64,000 nucleotides of DNA, taken from assembly GCF_006345805.1 (NCBI RefSeq), contig NC_042999.1, forward strand, positions 149,482,001 to 149,546,000. The letters run 5' to 3'. Below, in pieces: positions 22,923-29,654 of the stretch. This stretch comes from Octopus sinensis. Lineage: Eukaryota. Positions within the stretch are counted from its first letter, which is position 1. The number at the start of each line of letters is the position of its first letter. Position numbers: made by a program.

Positions 22923-25900
22923 AAACAGCAGAAAGCATGGGAATGGTCAAAGTGAATTCAATAATTTGTCTTTCTGAGAAAAGCGAACAGTTTGGAAAAC
23001 CTGAAAGCCTCAGGGTAAATTGAAACTGTCATGCTCAGTGTCCTAAATTAAATTCCAGGTATTTTACAGCTTCAATTAATTCAGGTCAGCCATGCATGAA
23101 CTTTGTGACCACTCAACCTAATAAAAATAGCAGCTCCTAACTTGAATCACACCCAGAAATCTTAAAAAAATATAGAATGACACACAGACTGGATAATGTA
23201 GTCTTCAATACACTTAGATTGAAAAATAAGAGAGACGGTCATAACTGGAACAATTAAGATCCTAAGTCTGCATGATTAAGGCTGACCAGGGGTTAAACAA
23301 CAATCTTTATCTTTCTTTTATTTTTTTACTTGTTTCTGTTATTGAACTGTGGCCATACTGGGGCACTGCCTTGAAGGGTTTAGTCACACAAATTAAACCC
23401 AGTACTTACTTTTGTAAGCCTGGTACTTATTTTATCATTCCCTTTTGCAGAACTGCCAAGTTACAGGGGTGTAAACAAACCGACATCAGTCAAGCGGTGG
23501 TGGGTGACAGCACAGATGATATTAACACCAATAGAAAAGACTATGTGTACTCCATCCTATGAAGTTGTGGTAGATTGTACAAAGGCGAAACATGCCACCC
23601 ACTGAAAATAAGGGTAGTGGAACATTATAAAGCTGTGACACAAGGAGGTGTTGAAAAATTGGGTATAGCTGATCATGTAGGGAAAAACGGAGACCATCTT
23701 CCCCTGTGGGATTGAATTTAAAATTATACACAGAGAACACCACTGGAAAATACAAAAACTAAGAAAAAGCATATATGCTAGGACACAATAACCTCCTATG
23801 CAGACCTAGTGCAGATATGAGTAGAATATGGGAACCGGTGTTAATGAAGGATACAAAAATATTAGGTTTATAAGCCCTAAAAATTCACTCTATAATTGCT
23901 CACAAGCATATAGCATAATAGTTAAGAGTGCGGCTTACTAACCCGAAGATTCCAAGTTTAATTCCAGGCCGTGCCTTAAATAAATAATATTAACAATATC
24001 AGCAAAAAATACCTTAGGTACGAGAACCCAGGGTTGGGTTCAAAATTCCACCAGGACACCTGATGAAGGCTGGAAAGTAAATCAGCCGGAATGTGGTGGT
24101 AGCAACAAACAAGAGGACGACACACATTCGTCCAATGTAAATAATGTATTAACATTTTCATAAGAATGTTGATGGATACTGAGAGGAAAACCTGCTTCCT
24201 ATGACAGTAAAATGATCTTACTAATCTGGTTGTTGTCTTAGTTCTATGAATAGAAACAGCAGTTTTTAAAACTCAGGGTTTGTCTGGTGCACATGGTAGA
24301 GATGTAACCTGACCCCTCCTCAATTAAAATTTTTTTTTTTACGGAAACTCACACTTTCAGCAATGAGGATTCCAATTCTGAAATAAAATTTACAAAAATC
24401 GCCATTTCAGGATAGGCTGCTTGAAGGCTGTAGAATCAGGAGGGTGGTTTTTTTTTGTTTTTTTTTTGAAAAATTGAAATTTTACAAACAATTTTTTTTT
24501 TCAGAATCATAATCTCTGTATTTTTCTATGTATTTCACCCAAAAAAAATTCTGAAAAAAGTGAAAAATAAAGAAATGGGGAAAGGAGGGGTGATTGAAAT
24601 TTTGAAGTTGTGATATTTGCCTTTTTTTTTTTTTTTCAGAATTGGAATTTCCAGAACTGAAAACGTGGGTTTCCATAAAAAAGAAAATTAAAAAATAAAG
24701 CGGGAGGTGCTGGGTTATGTCTCTGCCATGTGTGCCATTTGTCTAAACCACTGTAACCATTTCAAAAGTTGGTTCATCTGGGATTCTTGACAATAAGAGA
24801 GCTAGTTTCTTTTTGAAGACACCTACATCCACCCCATGCAGGTCTCTCAGGTCCTTCAGAGAATATTGAAGAGCTGTGGTCCTTTAAAGTCCTGGCTGTT
24901 ACAATATTTTGTCCTATATTTTTATGGCAAAGTTGGAATCTTTACCACTATGCAGTGGCACCCTGTTCTAGCATTAGTGTAGCATTCTTGTCCCATTTTG
25001 TATTATATATATATATATATATATAGGTTATAAAATGAGATAGGGGTTGAAAATTCAACCCACCATGGGATAATATATATCCAATATACTGCTAGATAGG
25101 TACCCAACAAGACTAATACATAGATGTTAAAAATTGCCAAAGAATCAGTTCATCTATTGTATTATATGGGTAAAGGTAATAATATTACCGTAAATTAATA
25201 CTACAAAATTAGAAAATGGAGAAACATACTTAAATCAATAAAACATCAACTATCAGATGATACCCAATCAATACTTTATTACACCATTACATATCAGTAA
25301 AGGCATTATACAAAATATACAGTAAAAGTAAATAGACAAAGAGATATAAGTATAAAATTTCAAATATAATATGTAATTAAATCAAATCTGACAGCTGTTT
25401 CGGCAGTGAGGGCAGTCATACCTCATTTAACCTATAAGCCATAAAGGCAGGTATAAATGAGGCATTAACAAGGATGCCCCACGGCCTCTTCAGAGAATTA
25501 AATTTGTTATAATTGTGAAAAAGATTATTTAACCATATACATATAAATATAAAAATATAAAAATGTAAAATATAAAAACTTATACATAAACTTCATAATG
25601 CTACACTTATATAATATAATACTCATTGGTACAATAATGCAAGGTAACAGAACAAAATAAAACAAAATATATATCAGTGTATAATTAATAAGCACCGTTA
25701 TTATACATATTTGACTAATAGTTTTTAAAAAAACTAACACATAGGGAGATGAAAAATAATAATTAAAACCATGGTTCAGTTCATAAAATTATAAAGCTTT
25801 TTTGACTTTTATAGCTTTATAATTTTATGAACTGAACCATGGTTTTAATTATTATTTTTCATCTCCCTATGTGTTAGTTTTTTTTAAAAACTATTAGCCA

Positions 25901-26422
25901 AATATGTATAATAACGGTGCTTATTAATATTAATATATACACTGATATATATTTTGTTTTATTTTGTTCTGTTTACCTTGCATTATTGTACCAATGAGTA
26001 TTATATTATATAAGTGTAGCATTATGAAGTTTATGTATAAGTTTTTATATTTTACATTTTTATATTTTTATATTTATATGTATATGGTTAAATAATCTTT
26101 TTCACAATTATAACAAATTTAATTCTCTGAAGAGGCTGTGGGGCATCCTTGTTAATGCCTCATTTATACCTGCCTTTATGGCTTATAGGTTAAATGAGGT
26201 ATGACTGCCCTCACTGCCGAAACAGCTGTCAGATTTGATTTAATTACATATTATATTTGAAATTTTATACTTATATCTCTTTGTCTATTTACTTTTACTG
26301 TATATTTTGTATAATGCCTTTACTGATATGTAATGGTGTAATAAAGTATTGATTGGGTATCATCTGATAGTTGATGTTTTATTGATTTAAGTATGTTTCT
26401 CCATTTTCTAATTTTGTATTAT

Positions 26423-26460
<38 letters not shown>

Positions 26461-29138
26461 CACTCAATATAAGATAGTGTACACTTAAACACAAGAAAAA
26501 ACTACCTTTAACAGGTAATTTTTACAAGCGAGAAGAAGCAGTCAAAATGAGCAAAACCACATTTTAGAGCACTTTTCGAAGGGAATGAAAAATAAAAACT
26601 TTTACCTTGTTATTTTTTGCGGTTATACCTAGGTTTCAAATTTCTTTAGCAAATTATTTTATTTGCTAAAGAAATTTGAAACCTAGGTATGTTAACCATA
26701 AAAAAATAACAAGGTAAAAGTTTTTACTTTTCATTCCCTTCGAAAAATGCTCTAAAATGTGGTACTTTGCGAACGAATGATCTTGCAACATTTAGAAAGT
26801 TGCTAATTTCTAAATCACTGTGCTTTGCATGTATAGCAAGTAGAAATTTATAGAAAAACAAAAGACAAAGACAGGTGTATGAACAACAAACAGGTGTATT
26901 AGTTTGACACTCATGTTTGTGTGTGTGTGGTGGGCTTCTTGGATAGTCCAGGGTTATAGCAGAAGACACTTGTCAAAGATGCCATGCAGTGGCACAGAAT
27001 CCAAGACCACATGGTAGGGAAGCAAGTTTCTACACCACATAGCCATACCTGTGCTTATCGATGTGAAAGTGAAAATAACTCAAGCTCAACTACCAGACTT
27101 ATAAAAAAAATTTTTTTAAGTACTGGTGGTTGGTTTGTTTGACTAAATTTTTCAAGGCGATACTCCAGTGTGGCCGCAATTCAATGCCTGAAAGAAGTTT
27201 AAAATTATCGGACTTTTTCATCCTAAATACTTTTCTATCGGCTTTTTACCACAAATTCTGATAAGGATAAATAAATTATATACTGTTGTTACTAAGAAAG
27301 ATGCCCCGAATTTTAAATTAACACACTGTGATTTGAGAAGAACCAGTACTGGCCCTTTTATTCTGAAAGACCGTTAACCCTTCTTTTTATGTAACGATAC
27401 AAACAAGTTTATCTACATCAAGGATATTAACTACAAAGCTCTCATAGCCCCTCTCTCTCTTCCTCTTCTTTACATCAACTGGGTCGAATTCTTTTGGTCT
27501 TTAGTTCGCTTGTAAACTGTTTGACTCCTTTATCAGATTTTAACAAGATTTGTCAGGGGTGTTTTATAAATAAACATTACTGCCTTTTCATTTTAACTCA
27601 TAAGATATATTTGCATGTTCATAATAATAAAACAAACAACACAAATCTGTCTGTTTAGACACTTTTATCTGTGTGATTTCAATAAGAGAAATCACTCAGA
27701 AATGATTTCCAAATTTCAGTATTTGTTTACTTTTAATCCTGAAATAAAAAACAGCAATGTGATAAATATTTATTTCGTGATTCTTTACGTAACTAATATT
27801 ACATAAATCATTAAATACGATGTAATTCCCAAATACACAAGTAATCACTATTTGATGAGCCAATCGCAATAAAATAGCCAGAGTAATGCCGGCAGATTCT
27901 GGCTAGTTTGTAATTTCAAATTGCTTTAGCTTTTCTATTTAATGAGATCATCTATCAATTTTCAATGTGCATTTGGATAAATCCAATACGATTACATTGC
28001 CTAATGATCCATTAACCCTAATTTTTTTTTACACATTGCGACAAATCCACATAATTTAGTAGTGCAGGGTTTTACATGCGATTGAATTTTAGGACGTATC
28101 GGATCGATATTTTATTAACCCCCTGGGGATGAAATATAAAGGGACTAGACGAGACTTTAGATTTTGGTCAAAGAGGTGACGATCCTAAAGCGTTGCCTGG
28201 CATCTAAGCAAATGATGACAATGTTAGGAATGGTTTAAAATTATTAGAACGAGCCGAAGATTGAGCTTCAACGTGACCACTCGAATAGTAACCAAATCTC
28301 CATATTAATGTCTTGAATAGTGTCTAACAAAAATTTTTTTTTTTAAAAAAAGGGAAAAAAGAAAGAAAAAATGGAAATGCTTGTAATCGCGAATCCTTTG
28401 ATGTTGGATCAGGGCAGATCAAAGACTGAAAGAAATTACATTTTTACGGTTTTATTTTGCAATGAACTGGATATATTGTATGGCGCGCGTGTATACATAA
28501 CGTTATTAGGTAACTTCAATCACTTCATATTAATTTCCAACCCAAGGCATGAGGCAGAGACAGTCAATCAAACAAAACAGTATACTACTGGTATTATTAT
28601 GTTGAGCAAATCGCAGGATGATGAAAAGCAAAGTGATCTTCAGCATGACTTGAACTCAGCGGAATGAAACTAAATACCATAATGCAATTTTGTGTGTGAT
28701 GTTTTGCTAATGCAACCTTTCCATCTATTATATATACAGTTATATATATATCATACGACTATTAGAGGCCAACCCCACAAATTATTGAAAGTCAAGAGAC
28801 AAACGTAAACCTCGCCAAGGTGTGTTCTTTATATATATTAACATTAATTCAAGATAAAGAGCAGTGGGATTGGTTGGGTTGTCTTAAGATTGCAATAGAC
28901 AGAAATATATATATACTTTATTTAAAGCAGCAGAAAATTCAGCAAAATCTGTTACTCTGAGTTTCTCGTTGCCGTTCATCAGACAGTTTTTGTAAAAACT
29001 GTCTGATGAACGGCAACGAGAAACTCAGAGTAACAGATTTTGTTGAATTTTCTGCTGCTTTAAATAAAGCATATTACTATACCACTGGTATTTGAATACT
29101 CTTTTTTCCCACCTTGTTTCACATTTATGTGTTTACTC

Positions 29139-29209
<71 letters not shown>

Positions 29210-29610
29210 TAAAAAGCGGTAAGATAACAAAAGAAAGAAAAAAACCTCAATATTATGTAAATAGAGGAAATTTATCTGTAAAATAATATGCTACAATTAC
29301 TCAATAGTCAAGATAAAACTCTGAGTTTCAGATGCCGAAGTGGAAATCCACAACACCATCTCTTCATATGCTTATTTCTCGTGTGTTTACGTCCCTGTAA
29401 CTTAGCGGTTCGGTAAAACAAACCGATAGAATAAGTACTAGGCTTACAAAGAATAAGTCCTCGGGTCGATTTGCTCGACTAAAGGCGGTGCTCCATCTCT
29501 TCAGTTATCTGGCCAGATAACCGAAGAGATGGTGTTGTGGATTTCCACTTCGGCATCTGAAACTCAGAGTTTTATCTTGACTATTGAGTAATTGTAACAT
29601 ATTATTTTAC

Positions 29611-29654
<44 letters not shown>

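What the first reader, a model, noticed from the sequence alone, without database searches (positions are those of the whole stretch)
25026..29615. Cluster of three ORF-less DNA palindromes, each carrying a hammerhead ribozyme on both strands
Seen: three mostly unrelated foldbacks (25202-26418, 28916-29069, 29273-29615) share one architecture. Each has a 0-14 nt centre, an HHR motif in each arm reading outward from the centre, one arm longer than the other by about 70-175 nt, and (TA)n on both flanks. Established: PLE terminal repeats (pLTRs) carry type I minimal HHRs and PLE insertions often have an inverted pLTR. Inference: these are either extreme 5'-truncated, fold-back PLE insertions from three families, or a class of non-autonomous ambisense ribozyme hairpin elements. 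A transcript from either strand would hold an HHR together with its own antisense copy, giving a built-in competition between self-cleavage and dsRNA formation.
Basis: partly seen in the sequence, partly recalled or inferred. Interest (0 to 1): 0.85.

Follow-up and report, generated by a model that had tools for sequence, protein, structure and literature searches.

The report
Fold-back retrotransposon stubs in TA repeats
Three short DNA palindromes sitting in TA microsatellites look like the ordinary head-to-head, truncated insertion scars of Penelope-like retrotransposons, and only one of them still carries a hammerhead ribozyme motif that looks intact.

Summary
The three palindromes are real, ORF-less and each splits a (TA)n tract. 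Centres are 14, 2 and 0 nt, arms are 96-98% alike, and each has one outer extension of 63-175 nt.

The hammerhead claim holds only in part. P1 has a canonical core with all three helices in both arms. P2 has the core boxes and helices I and III, but only a 2-bp helix II. In P3, box 1 is mutated in both contiguous copies, and the left arm is split by a 130-nt templated SINE-fragment insertion. No Rfam hammerhead model matched in six searches.

The architecture matches published Penelope-like element (PLE) insertions: head-to-head inverted 5'-truncated copies, a palindromic junction, a "tail" on one inverted copy, and AT-rich/(TA)n targets (PMC3846280, PMC8557442, PMC11167929). My best reading is solo inverted PLE-type 3' stubs from three families, folded back at integration.

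The proposed cleavage-versus-dsRNA competition is one-sided: the hairpin wins by 78-160 kcal/mol.

I had no eukaryotic genome collection, so copy number and homology to an ORF-bearing PLE stayed untested. This is a known kind of feature, of low to moderate interest.

The parts
25004..25025 (.). (TA)11 flank at the left of unit P1
   Evidence: regex scan
25027..25190 (-). P1 one-sided outer extension ('tail') of the long (left) arm; absent from the right arm
25191..25798 (-). P1 left arm (sense reads outward on the minus strand)
   Evidence: 98.0% identity without gaps
25378..25505 (-). P1 left-arm hammerhead motif. It has CUGAAGA, a 10-bp helix II base (one U.U or C.U mismatch) carrying an 85-nt hairpin, and GAAA-C-AGCU-G-UC. 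The predicted cut is after 25390.
   Evidence: own descriptor; anatomy
25799..25812 (.). P1 14-nt non-palindromic centre
25813..26419 (+). P1 right (short) arm
26115..26242 (+). P1 right-arm hammerhead motif, predicted cut after 26230
26420..26459 (.). (TA)n tract shared by the right end of P1 and the left end of P4
28905..28915 (.). short (AT)5A flank at the left of unit P2
28916..28991 (-). P2 left (short) arm with a hammerhead-derived motif (box 1 at 28982, predicted cut after 28953)
28994..29069 (+). P2 right (long) arm. Its hammerhead-derived motif reads CUGAUGA-A-CG-GCAA-CG-A-GAAA-C-UCAGA-G-UA, with the predicted cut after 29032.
29070..29140 (+). P2 one-sided outer extension of the right arm, running up to (TA)33
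29141..29206 (.). (TA)33 tract shared by the right end of P2 and the left end of P3
29207..29269 (-). P3 one-sided outer extension of the left (long) arm
29270..29365 (-). P3 outer left arm. It holds the hammerhead-derived motif, with box 1 now AUGAAGA.
29366..29495 (+). 130-nt SINE-3' fragment inserted in the P3 left arm, flanked by an 11-bp duplication (CCATCTCTTCA at 29356-29366 and 29493-29503). It is a 97% inverted copy of the neighbour 29682-29811, with the same non-SINE 12-nt leader.
29493..29532 (.). P3 inner palindrome with a 0-nt centre at 29512/29513. It holds the exact CUGAAGA (minus strand, 29504-29498) and the mutated CCGAAGA (plus strand, 29521-29527).
29513..29612 (+). P3 right (short) arm. 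It has helix II GAUG..CAUC, an extra U, and GAAA-C-UCAGA-G-UU, with the predicted cut after 29571.
29613..29650 (.). (TA)19 flank at the right of P3
29651..29811 (-). 5'-truncated SINE 3' fragment bounded by (TA)n on both sides; the likely template of the insertion in P3

Best explanation
P1, P2 and P3 are three independent, ORF-less insertions of the 3'-terminal (pseudo-LTR-type) part of Penelope-like retroelements, or of short non-autonomous RNAs that use the same machinery. They come from three families. Each landed in a (TA)n microsatellite and was laid down as a head-to-head inverted pair.

Proposed course of events (inferred, not shown):
1. The GIY-YIG endonuclease cuts AT-rich DNA.
2. 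Reverse transcription starts at an internal site of the RNA and runs 5'-ward through the hammerhead region.
3. It stops early, which gives the 5' truncation.
4. The nascent cDNA end primes on itself (snap-back), or on a cDNA primed from the other target strand. This makes a second, inverted arm that joins the first at a near-perfect palindromic centre.
5. The second arm ends at a more internal point than the first. The first arm therefore keeps a one-sided 'tail'.

The hammerhead motifs are passengers, the normal pseudo-LTR ribozyme of such elements. They are intact-looking in P1, lack most of helix II in P2, and are mutated and interrupted in P3. The palindromes are by-products of integration rather than devices.

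If one is transcribed across its whole length it would simply form a long hairpin.
For: SHOWN IN THE SEQUENCE
(a) All six outer ends of P1-P3 abut (TA)n. P2, P3 and a SINE fragment sit in what looks like one serially hit tract, 28905-29845.
(b) The motif reads outward in every arm.
(c) Centres are 14, 2 and 0 nt.
(d) Each unit has an extension on one arm only, and it bridges exactly to the (TA)n tract.
(e) P2 and P3 cannot be aligned outside a 21-nt piece of the ribozyme, yet share the same geometry. Box 1 lies 10 and 8 nt from the centre. The short arm ends 37-42 and 41-47 nt after the predicted cleavage site. The long arm ends 108 and 110 nt after it (the P3 left-arm value is corrected by arm symmetry). 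This fits two discrete start points of reverse transcription.
(f) P1 passes a strict hammerhead descriptor in both arms against 0.2 hits expected per window. Its 15.2-loop 3-16.2 stretch reads CAGCUG, which is palindromic.
(g) In P3, helix I is 6 consecutive Watson-Crick pairs and helix II is 4, at the positions the core dictates. I did not select P3 for either.

ESTABLISHED IN PAPERS I READ
- PLE insertions are highly 5'-truncated. They often have an inverted 5'-truncated copy, and a 30-40-bp tail at one end only. (TA)n is a preferred target of Naiads, and a microsatellite bias was proposed for Neptune (PMC8557442, passages).
- Inverted pseudo-LTRs with palindromes at the inverted junction are read as self-priming, and a 31-bp tail occurs on one inverted pseudo-LTR (PMC3846280, passages).
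- A purified PLE protein cleaves and extends both target strands at AT-rich sites and starts reverse transcription internally. The tail is the stretch between two start sites, and the ribozyme cut lies about 85-92 nt upstream of the start (PMC11167929, main text).
- Dual mini-hammerheads 100-700 bp apart on opposite strands were seen in Schistosoma and ascribed to truncated PLEs (PMC4209133, parts 1-2 of the text).
Against: - No homology to any ORF-bearing PLE could be shown.
- No GIY-YIG or PLE-type ORF was found in 37 of the 58 stop-to-stop frames of 110 aa or more in the window. The other 21 were not scanned: 19 lie in the TA-rich block 7665-10181.
- No Rfam hammerhead model matched any arm, even at E<=10 in slices of 101-161 nt.
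- P2 lacks a real helix II, and P3 has an extra U next to G12.
- None of the three shows the bulged base between positions 9 and 10.1 that PMC4209133 reports as typical of PLE mini-hammerheads.
- The tails here are 63-175 nt, not 30-40 bp.
- Two further palindromes at (TA)n, P4 (26556-26763) and P5 (13904-14087), have no hammerhead core. Fold-backs at TA tracts therefore occur here without a ribozyme.
- Each descriptor hit taken alone is only modestly unlikely per window (0.1-0.2 expected).
Confidence: 0.62

Rival explanations
1. These are non-autonomous 'ambisense hairpin' elements. The whole palindrome, with a ribozyme in each arm, is the transposing unit and is copied as such.
For: P2 and P3 share a stereotyped geometry, with the centre 8-10 nt upstream of box 1 and arm ends at fixed distances from the cleavage site. 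A defined unit could also explain that. P2 is an almost perfect 154-164-nt hairpin.
Against: No arm has a second copy in the 64-kb window, though that is weak evidence for a low-copy family. The (TA)n-bounded units are asymmetric, so the unit ends are not inverted repeats. A hairpin RNA of -134 to -976 kcal/mol would be a poor template and would hide the ribozyme. P1's centre lies 312-321 nt from its ribozyme, unlike P2 and P3.
Confidence: 0.1
2. DNA-level fold-back at fragile (TA)n tracts. Breakage or fork stalling at a cruciform-prone TA repeat is followed by a template switch that duplicates adjacent sequence in inverted orientation. The hammerhead-like motifs are then either chance matches or were already present in the duplicated sequence.
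For: P4 and P5 are palindromes at (TA)n without any hammerhead core. P3 carries a templated 130-nt insertion copied from a neighbour 186 nt away, with microhomology at both junctions, which is a typical signature of template switching. Rfam finds no hammerhead.
Against: Both outer ends of P1, P2 and P3 abut (TA)n, as expected for an insertion that splits a tract and not for a local duplication. Hammerhead cores with matching helices occur in P1 and P2, against 0.1-0.2 descriptor hits expected per window. They read outward in all arms and sit at matching distances in P2 and P3.
Confidence: 0.12
3. These are TA-targeting DNA-transposon derivatives (MITE or fold-back type, Tc1/mariner-like) whose long terminal inverted repeats make up the whole element.
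For: The insertions are in TA-rich targets. The elements are palindromic and ORF-less. A DDE_3 transposase fragment lies in the window at 55536-55910 (24.8 bits, below the Pfam cut-off of 28.6).
Against: The (TA)n-bounded units do not end in inverted repeats, because of the one-sided extensions. This model does not predict outward-reading hammerhead motifs. There are no further copies in the window.
Confidence: 0.06
4. The palindromes are assembly artefacts, not present in the genome.
For: PMC8557442 notes that the tandem/inverted structures of PLEs often cause assembly problems.
Against: The arms differ by 2-4% and by indels: P1 has 12 mismatches and 3 gaps, P2 has 3 mismatches, and the P3 outer arms have 2. 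The palindromes are short and lie between unique flanks. P3 carries a later insertion in one arm only. There are no N runs in the window.
Confidence: 0.03

Closest known systems
Inverted (head-to-head) pseudo-LTR arrangement of endonuclease-bearing Penelope-like elements, with the optional 'tail' (PMC3846280, PMC8557442)
   Same: An inverted 5'-truncated copy joined head-to-head, with a palindrome at the junction. There is an extension at the outer (3') end of only one of the two inverted copies. The targets are AT-rich or (TA)n, and a hammerhead motif sits in the repeated part.
   Different: There is no ORF-bearing unit between or beside the inverted copies: these are solo pairs of 154-1240 bp. 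The tails are 63-175 nt rather than 30-40 bp. Membership of any PLE clade is untested.
PLE mini-hammerheads, including 'dual min-HHRs on opposite strands 100-700 bp apart' in Schistosoma mansoni (PMC4209133)
   Same: Type I topology (helix I open), a long helix II, and a very short helix III (palindromic CAGCUG in P1). Two copies lie on opposite strands a short distance apart.
   Different: There is no bulged base between positions 9 and 10.1. P2 lacks G10.1-C11.1 and most of helix II. P3 has an extra U before G12 and mutated box 1 copies. P1's helix II carries an 85-nt hairpin.
Animal non-LTR retrozymes (PMC7229834; bioRxiv 10.64898/2026.07.22.740005)
   Same: Short, ORF-less, AT-rich hammerhead-bearing sequences thought to depend on PLEs.
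   Different: Retrozymes are direct tandem repeats that give circular RNAs. Here the two copies are inverted and there is no direct second copy. A term search of the two papers found no mention of inverted or palindromic arrangements.
Reverse-transcriptase snap-back / self-primed synthesis, and LINE-1 twin-priming 5' inversions
   Same: An inverted segment is created during integration by a polymerase changing template, with short or no microhomology at the junction.
   Different: As I recall it (not read here), twin priming joins two different parts of the RNA. Here both arms are the same part, which points to self-copying. For snap-back I saw only the search listing.
MITEs / fold-back DNA transposons with TA targets
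   Same: Small, palindromic, ORF-less, and inserted in TA-rich targets.
   Different: The unit ends are not inverted repeats, because of the one-sided extension. A ribozyme motif reads outward in each arm.

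Membership tests
Hammerhead ribozyme (type I) | Conserved core: C3-U4-G5-A6-N7-G8-A9, G12-A13-A14, A15.1-U16.1, H17 | tested here: inconclusive
   P1 meets it in both arms. P2 meets it in both arms. P3 does not meet it in either contiguous copy: the right arm is CCGAAGA and the left is AUGAAGA. The exact CUGAAGA is separated from the rest by a 130-nt insertion, and an extra U precedes G12.
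Hammerhead ribozyme (type I) | Helices I, II and III closing on the core, with G10.1-C11.1 | tested here: inconclusive
   P1: helix I is 3+4+2 bp, helix II is 10 bp with one mismatch and starts G-C, helix III is A-U and C-G around AGCU. P2: helix I is 4+5-6 bp, helix III is 3 bp, helix II is only 2 bp with A opposite A at 10.1/11.1. P3: helix I is 6 bp, helix II is 4 bp starting G-C but with a bulged U, helix III is 3 bp.
Hammerhead ribozyme (type I) | Match to the curated covariance models (Rfam hammerhead families) | tested here: not met
   No hammerhead family appears (gathering threshold, 0 matches of any kind). None appears among the 62, 5, 6 and 19 matches at E<=10.
Hammerhead ribozyme (type I) | Self-cleavage at the predicted site | not testable with these tools
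   This needs in vitro transcription. The hammerhead-constrained fold lies 8-12 kcal/mol above the minimum-energy fold of a single arm.
PLE mini-hammerhead (PMC4209133) | [quoted passage not shown] | tested here: inconclusive
   Bulge: absent in P1 and P3. In P2 an A follows A9, but the partner side is also unpaired. Palindromic helix III/loop 3: met in P1 (CAGCUG), not in P2 or P3 (CUCAGAG). Long helix II: P1 and P3 yes, P2 no.
Penelope-like element insertion | ORF with a telomerase-like RT and a GIY-YIG endonuclease, or clear homology of the fragment to such an element | not testable with these tools
   The palindromes hold no ORF. 37 of the window's 58 frames of 110 aa or more were scanned. 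None had GIY-YIG, and the RVT_1 hits carry a PHD finger, so they look LINE-like. No eukaryotic genome or repeat library was available for homology. Supplementary file S1 of PMC8557442, which according to the text lists cephalopod families, could not be opened.
Penelope-like element insertion | Head-to-head inverted 5'-truncated copy with a palindromic junction | tested here: met
   The arms read outward from centres of 14, 2 and 0 nt.
Penelope-like element insertion | Optional short 'tail' at the 3' end of only one of the inverted copies | tested here: inconclusive
   A one-sided outer extension is present in all three, and in P4. It is 164-175, 66-71 and 63 nt long, against the 30-40 bp in the papers.
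Penelope-like element insertion | AT-rich / (TA)n insertion sites | tested here: met
   All six unit ends abut (TA)n.
Non-LTR retrozyme | Direct tandem repeats, each with a hammerhead | tested here: not met
   The only second copy of each arm is the inverted partner.
MITE (Tc1/mariner-type) | Terminal inverted repeats at both ends of the inserted unit, TA duplication, many copies | tested here: not met
   The (TA)n-bounded units end in unrelated sequence on the extended side. A TA duplication cannot be read inside (TA)n. There are no further copies in the window, and the genome-wide count was not testable.

The most novel reading that the evidence does not exclude
P2, P3 and perhaps the single-arm motif at 7510-7605 may belong to a class of minimal, ribozyme-headed non-autonomous retroelements. 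Their full unit would be the hammerhead plus about 110 nt, with a 5' end fixed 8-20 nt upstream of box 1 rather than truncated at random. They would routinely integrate into (TA)n as snap-back hairpins, seeding long perfect dsRNA-forming loci that could act as small-RNA or RNA-editing substrates. The fixed 5' end would point to an unknown step that defines the RNA or cDNA end at the ribozyme's 5' border.
Probability: 0.12. Interest if true: 0.55.

Novelty: new member of a known kind. Interest (0 to 1): 0.27.

Why it matters
This matters mainly as annotation. These loci should be labelled as PLE-type fold-back insertion scars in TA microsatellites, not as a new ribozyme device.

Two details could interest people who work on the PLE mechanism.
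- Two unrelated families share the same distances from the ribozyme to the two alternative outer ends (about +40 and +110). This fits the two internal reverse-transcription start sites shown in vitro for one vertebrate PLE.
- In P2 and P3 the 5' end or fold-back point lies right at the ribozyme's 5' border, and the single-arm motif at 7510-7605 starts 8-19 nt upstream of its box 1.

Whether such hairpins feed RNA-silencing or editing pathways in this animal is open, and I did not address it.

Tried and rejected
RFAM. I searched at the gathering threshold on the whole window. I also searched at E<=10 on 24800-30000, 28985-29085, 26100-26260, 29490-29620 and 7480-7640. No hammerhead family appeared. 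The sub-threshold microRNA-precursor matches only reflect the hairpins, and I rejected them.

OTHER COPIES IN THE WINDOW. A sensitive blastn of each arm plus tail found only the partner arms. P1 also gave low-complexity AT-rich matches. The SINE fragment had 13 further matches.

PLE ORFs IN THE WINDOW. Pfam scans of 37 of 58 frames found no GIY-YIG. They found RVT_1 with a PHD finger (LINE-like), a Pif1 2B domain, and a weak DDE_3 match.

TAXON. The ESM Atlas search with the 445-aa RT frame showed invertebrate eukaryotes, with Mollusca among the commonest phyla in two rows, and nothing firmer. My impression that the abundant tRNA-type SINE is cephalopod is recalled, not tested.

DO SINEs TARGET (TA)n HERE? 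Only 1 of 10 SINE 3' ends abuts (TA)n, so I rejected the idea.

IS 7510-7605 PART OF THE LINE 3' UTR? LINE homology to the second copy stops at about 7502, so it is not. I looked for the missing LINE 3' end downstream and the result was uninformative: it showed a 61-bp tandem repeat.

RELATEDNESS OF THE FAMILIES. Pairwise local alignments of P1-P5 sense arms were all at chance level, except P2/P3 (p about 0.02) and, weakly, P1/P3 (p about 0.035).

LITERATURE. The searches found no paper describing ORF-less palindromic hammerhead pairs as a class of their own. The nearest statement is the 'dual min-HHRs in opposite strands' sentence in PMC4209133. I saw only the search listings for papers not named elsewhere in this report.

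NOT DONE.
- A genome-wide search.
- Supplementary files of the papers (closed).
- RNAmotif with the published descriptor (not installed). My own descriptors are stand-ins.
- Complex prediction, structure prediction and protein homology searches, which have no bearing on this question.

Full report
WHAT IS THERE

The region is AT-rich, non-coding and full of (TA)n: 92 tracts of five or more units, 2101 nt in all, in the 64-kb window.

- P1 has arms 25191-25798 and 25813-26429 around a 14-nt centre. The arms show 603 matches, 12 mismatches and 3 gaps totalling 9 nt.
- P2 has arms 28911-28991 and 28994-29074 around 2 nt.
- P3 has outer arms 29270-29365 and 29523-29618 and an inner 40-nt palindrome 29493-29532. 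Its centre is ctgg|ccag at 29512/29513.

No frame of 110 aa or more lies inside them. Every outer end abuts a (TA)n tract.

P2 (28916-29140), P3 (29207-29612) and a SINE fragment (29651-29807) are separated only by (TA)33 and (TA)19. The SINE fragment is followed by a second (TA)19 (29808-29845), as if one microsatellite had been hit three times. P1 and a fourth palindrome, P4, share the tract 26420-26459.

THE ASYMMETRY

Each unit has an extension on one arm only, at the outer end, that bridges the palindrome to the (TA)n tract:
- P1: 25027-25190.
- P2: 29070-29140.
- P3: 29207-29269.
- P4: 26461-26555.

P3 has a second, different asymmetry. A 130-nt piece (29366-29495) interrupts its left arm 9-20 nt from the centre. 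The piece is flanked by an 11-bp duplication of CCATCTCTTCA. It is a 97% inverted copy of a SINE 3' fragment lying 186 nt away (29682-29811). It shares with that neighbour a 12-nt leader that the other SINE copies matched in the window lack: 11 of those 13 matches align only from position 13 or later, and none from position 1.

The copy starts exactly at the neighbour's border with (TA)n and returns to the arm at a CC/CCA microhomology. I read this as a templated insertion by a polymerase that switched templates. I cannot tell whether that happened during integration or during later repair of the palindrome centre.

THE HAMMERHEAD MOTIFS

Rfam gave no hammerhead match at all. This held at the gathering threshold and at E<=10 in the 5.2-kb region and in slices of 101-161 nt.

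I therefore wrote two descriptors.

The strict one required:
- CUGANGA;
- at least 2 contiguous pairs at the base of helix II;
- GAAA;
- at least 2 pairs in helix III, ending in U-H;
- helix I with at least 3 leading pairs and at least 6 of 10 paired.

It found 3 sites in the window: the two P1 arms and one at 7510-7605. 100 first-order Markov shuffles gave a mean of 0.2 sites and a maximum of 2.

200 shuffles gave a mean of 0.10 and a maximum of 2.

The anatomy is as follows.
- P1 is convincing. Its core is CUGAAGA. Helix II starts G-C and runs 10 bp with one mismatch, below an 85-nt hairpin. Then comes GAAA, with helix III as A-U and C-G around AGCU, so the stretch CAGCUG is palindromic. The cleavage triplet is GUC. 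Helix I is 3+4+2 bp.
- P2 has CUGAUGA, GAAA, a 3-bp helix III and a good helix I. Between the boxes, however, there are only ten bases (A-CG-GCAA-CG-A).
- P3 has helix I of 6 Watson-Crick pairs, helix II GAUG/CAUC below a GUGG/CCAC hairpin, and the same helix III as P2. It also has an extra U between helix II and G12.
- Box 1 in P3 is now CCGAAGA in the right arm and AUGAAGA in the contiguous left-arm copy. The one exact CUGAAGA is stranded on the centre side of the 130-nt insertion.

P2 and P3 share a 21-nt stretch from the 3' strand of helix II through helix III (p about 0.02). P2 therefore looks like a relative of P3 that has lost the 5' strand and tip of helix II. Outside that stretch the five palindromes align no better than chance.

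In summary there is one intact-looking hammerhead pair (P1), one pair without a real helix II (P2), and one pair disabled by point changes and an insertion (P3).

GEOMETRY

In P2 and P3 the centre lies 10 and 8 nt upstream of box 1. The short arm ends 37-42 and 41-47 nt after the predicted cleavage site. The long arm ends 108 and 110 nt after it. The P3 left-arm figure was off by one there, and I corrected it by symmetry.

In P1 the figures are 312-321, 189 and 363 nt. Two families that cannot be aligned thus share two discrete outer end points and the same inner end point.

ENERGETICS

For a single arm, the hammerhead-constrained fold lies 8-12 kcal/mol above the minimum free energy. For a transcript across the whole unit it lies 160 (P1), 78-79 (P2) and 87 (P3) kcal/mol above the long hairpin.

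The two sense copies lie on opposite strands, so no single transcript can form the dimer through which PLE mini-hammerheads are thought to act (PMC4209133).

The ribozyme would be free only in a transcript that starts near the centre and reads outward.

WHAT IT IS

The four architectural features match what is published for endonuclease-bearing Penelope-like elements.

- PMC8557442 (passages read): insertions are highly 5'-truncated. [quoted passage not shown] (TA)n is a preferred target of Naiads, and a microsatellite bias was proposed for Neptune. Canonical hammerheads sit in the pseudo-LTRs of all clades except Naiad and most Chlamys.
- PMC3846280 (passages read): it describes inverted pseudo-LTRs and a 31-bp tail on one of them. 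[quoted passage not shown]
- PMC11167929 (main text read): a purified PLE protein cleaves and extends both target strands at AT-rich sites and starts reverse transcription at internal sites of the RNA. The tail is the stretch between two such start sites. The ribozyme cut lies at +26 and the start at +111-118, and the ribozyme is not needed for insertion in vitro.
- PMC4209133 (parts 1-2 read): it reports dual mini-hammerheads 100-700 bp apart on opposite strands in Schistosoma and ascribes most such motifs to truncated PLEs.

The simplest reading is that P1-P3 are solo, head-to-head, 5'-truncated PLE-type insertions from three families. The near-zero centres favour self-copying (snap-back) of one cDNA over two independently truncated cDNAs, because independent truncation would leave unequal inner ends. 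The long arm would be the target-primed cDNA and the short arm its incomplete copy, or else the two arms used the two alternative start sites. These steps are inference.

WHAT SPEAKS AGAINST IT, AND THE RIVALS

- I could not show homology to any ORF-bearing PLE. No GIY-YIG frame was found among the 37 of 58 frames scanned.
- The tails are longer than published.
- The typical bulge after position 9 is missing.
- P4 (26556-26763) and P5 (13904-14087) are palindromes at (TA)n with no hammerhead core. They may be HHR-less PLE (Naiad-type) scars, or they may show that TA tracts make fold-backs on their own.

The rivals are a mobilised hairpin element, a DNA-level fold-back at a fragile TA repeat, a TA-targeting MITE, and an assembly artefact. 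I give them 0.10, 0.12, 0.06 and 0.03.

The decisive test is a genome-wide census of copies, centres and ends. It could not be run, because the only genome collection open to me holds bacteria and archaea.

NOVELTY AND SCORE

This is a new instance of a known kind. A specialist would recognise inverted solo pseudo-LTR pairs in TA microsatellites. What is mildly new is the matching end-point geometry in two unrelated families, and the fold-back point sitting right at the ribozyme's 5' border. Interest is 0.27.

The boldest reading my evidence does not exclude is a class of minimal ribozyme-headed non-autonomous elements with a defined 5' end that integrate as hairpins. I give it a probability of about 0.12.

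Noticed in passing
Its arms are 26556-26618 / 26701-26763 and extend inward to a 6-nt centre near 26657 (94% identity). It has a 95-nt one-sided extension running up to the (TA)n tract it shares with P1, and no (TA)n on its right. It has no CUGANGA. A box-like CUAAAGA...GAAAC-CUAG-GUA sits 5 nt from the centre in each arm but has no helix II.
   Followed up: partly
window 13904-14087: P5 is a 184-nt palindrome (about 95-97% identity) whose centre is itself a short (TA)n. It has (TA)n on its left flank only and no hammerhead boxes. A smaller hairpin lies nearby (arms 13723-13749 / 13769-13795, 19-nt loop).
   Followed up: partly
window 7510-7605 (+): A single-arm hammerhead-like motif passes both of my descriptors. 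It has CUGACGA, a helix II that starts A-U, GAAA-U-GGAC-A-UA, and a helix I with 10 of 12 positions paired. It begins 8-19 nt after the point (about 7502) where a LINE copy loses homology to its sister copy at 56952-57695. It is followed about 190 nt later by a 2.6-kb TA-rich block. There is no Rfam match. It could be chance (0.1-0.2 expected per window) or a non-folded PLE-type stub.
   Followed up: partly
window 29366-29495 and 29651-29811: A SINE 3' fragment bounded by (TA)n was copied, inverted, into the left arm of P3, with microhomology at both junctions and an 11-bp duplication. It is the only one of 10 SINE 3' ends in the window that abuts (TA)n.
   Followed up: yes
window 25790-25796 (+) and 25815-25821 (-): TATAAAG lies 3-16 nt on either side of P1's centre, each copy reading across the centre into the opposite arm. 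If used as a promoter, it would give outward, sense-only transcripts. TATA-like words are common in this AT-rich sequence, so this may mean nothing.
   Followed up: no
window 56395-57732 (+), 6610-7317 (+), 63330-63992 (+): These are LINE-type reverse-transcriptase frames. RVT_1 scores E=4.6e-24 and 5.6e-10, and a PHD finger follows the RT in two of the frames. The copy ending near 7502 lacks the last 30 nt or so of the ORF.
   Followed up: partly
window 61155-61850 (+) and 55536-55910 (-): The first frame has a Pif1 helicase 2B domain (E=4.4e-18) and may be Helitron-related. The second is a weak DDE_3 transposase fragment (24.8 bits, below the Pfam cut-off).
   Followed up: no
window 57780-58447 and 7780-10400: The first region is a tandem array of units of about 61 bp downstream of the second LINE copy, with one related unit at 9822-9919 on the minus strand. 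The second is a 2.6-kb block of degenerate TA/CA-rich microsatellite.
   Followed up: no
window 4249-4600, 5112-6146, 36732-39221 and elsewhere: There are many copies of one tRNA-headed SINE, several as inverted pairs 400-1000 bp apart. These account for the window's other, looser inverted repeats. That the SINE looks cephalopod is my recollection only.
   Followed up: no
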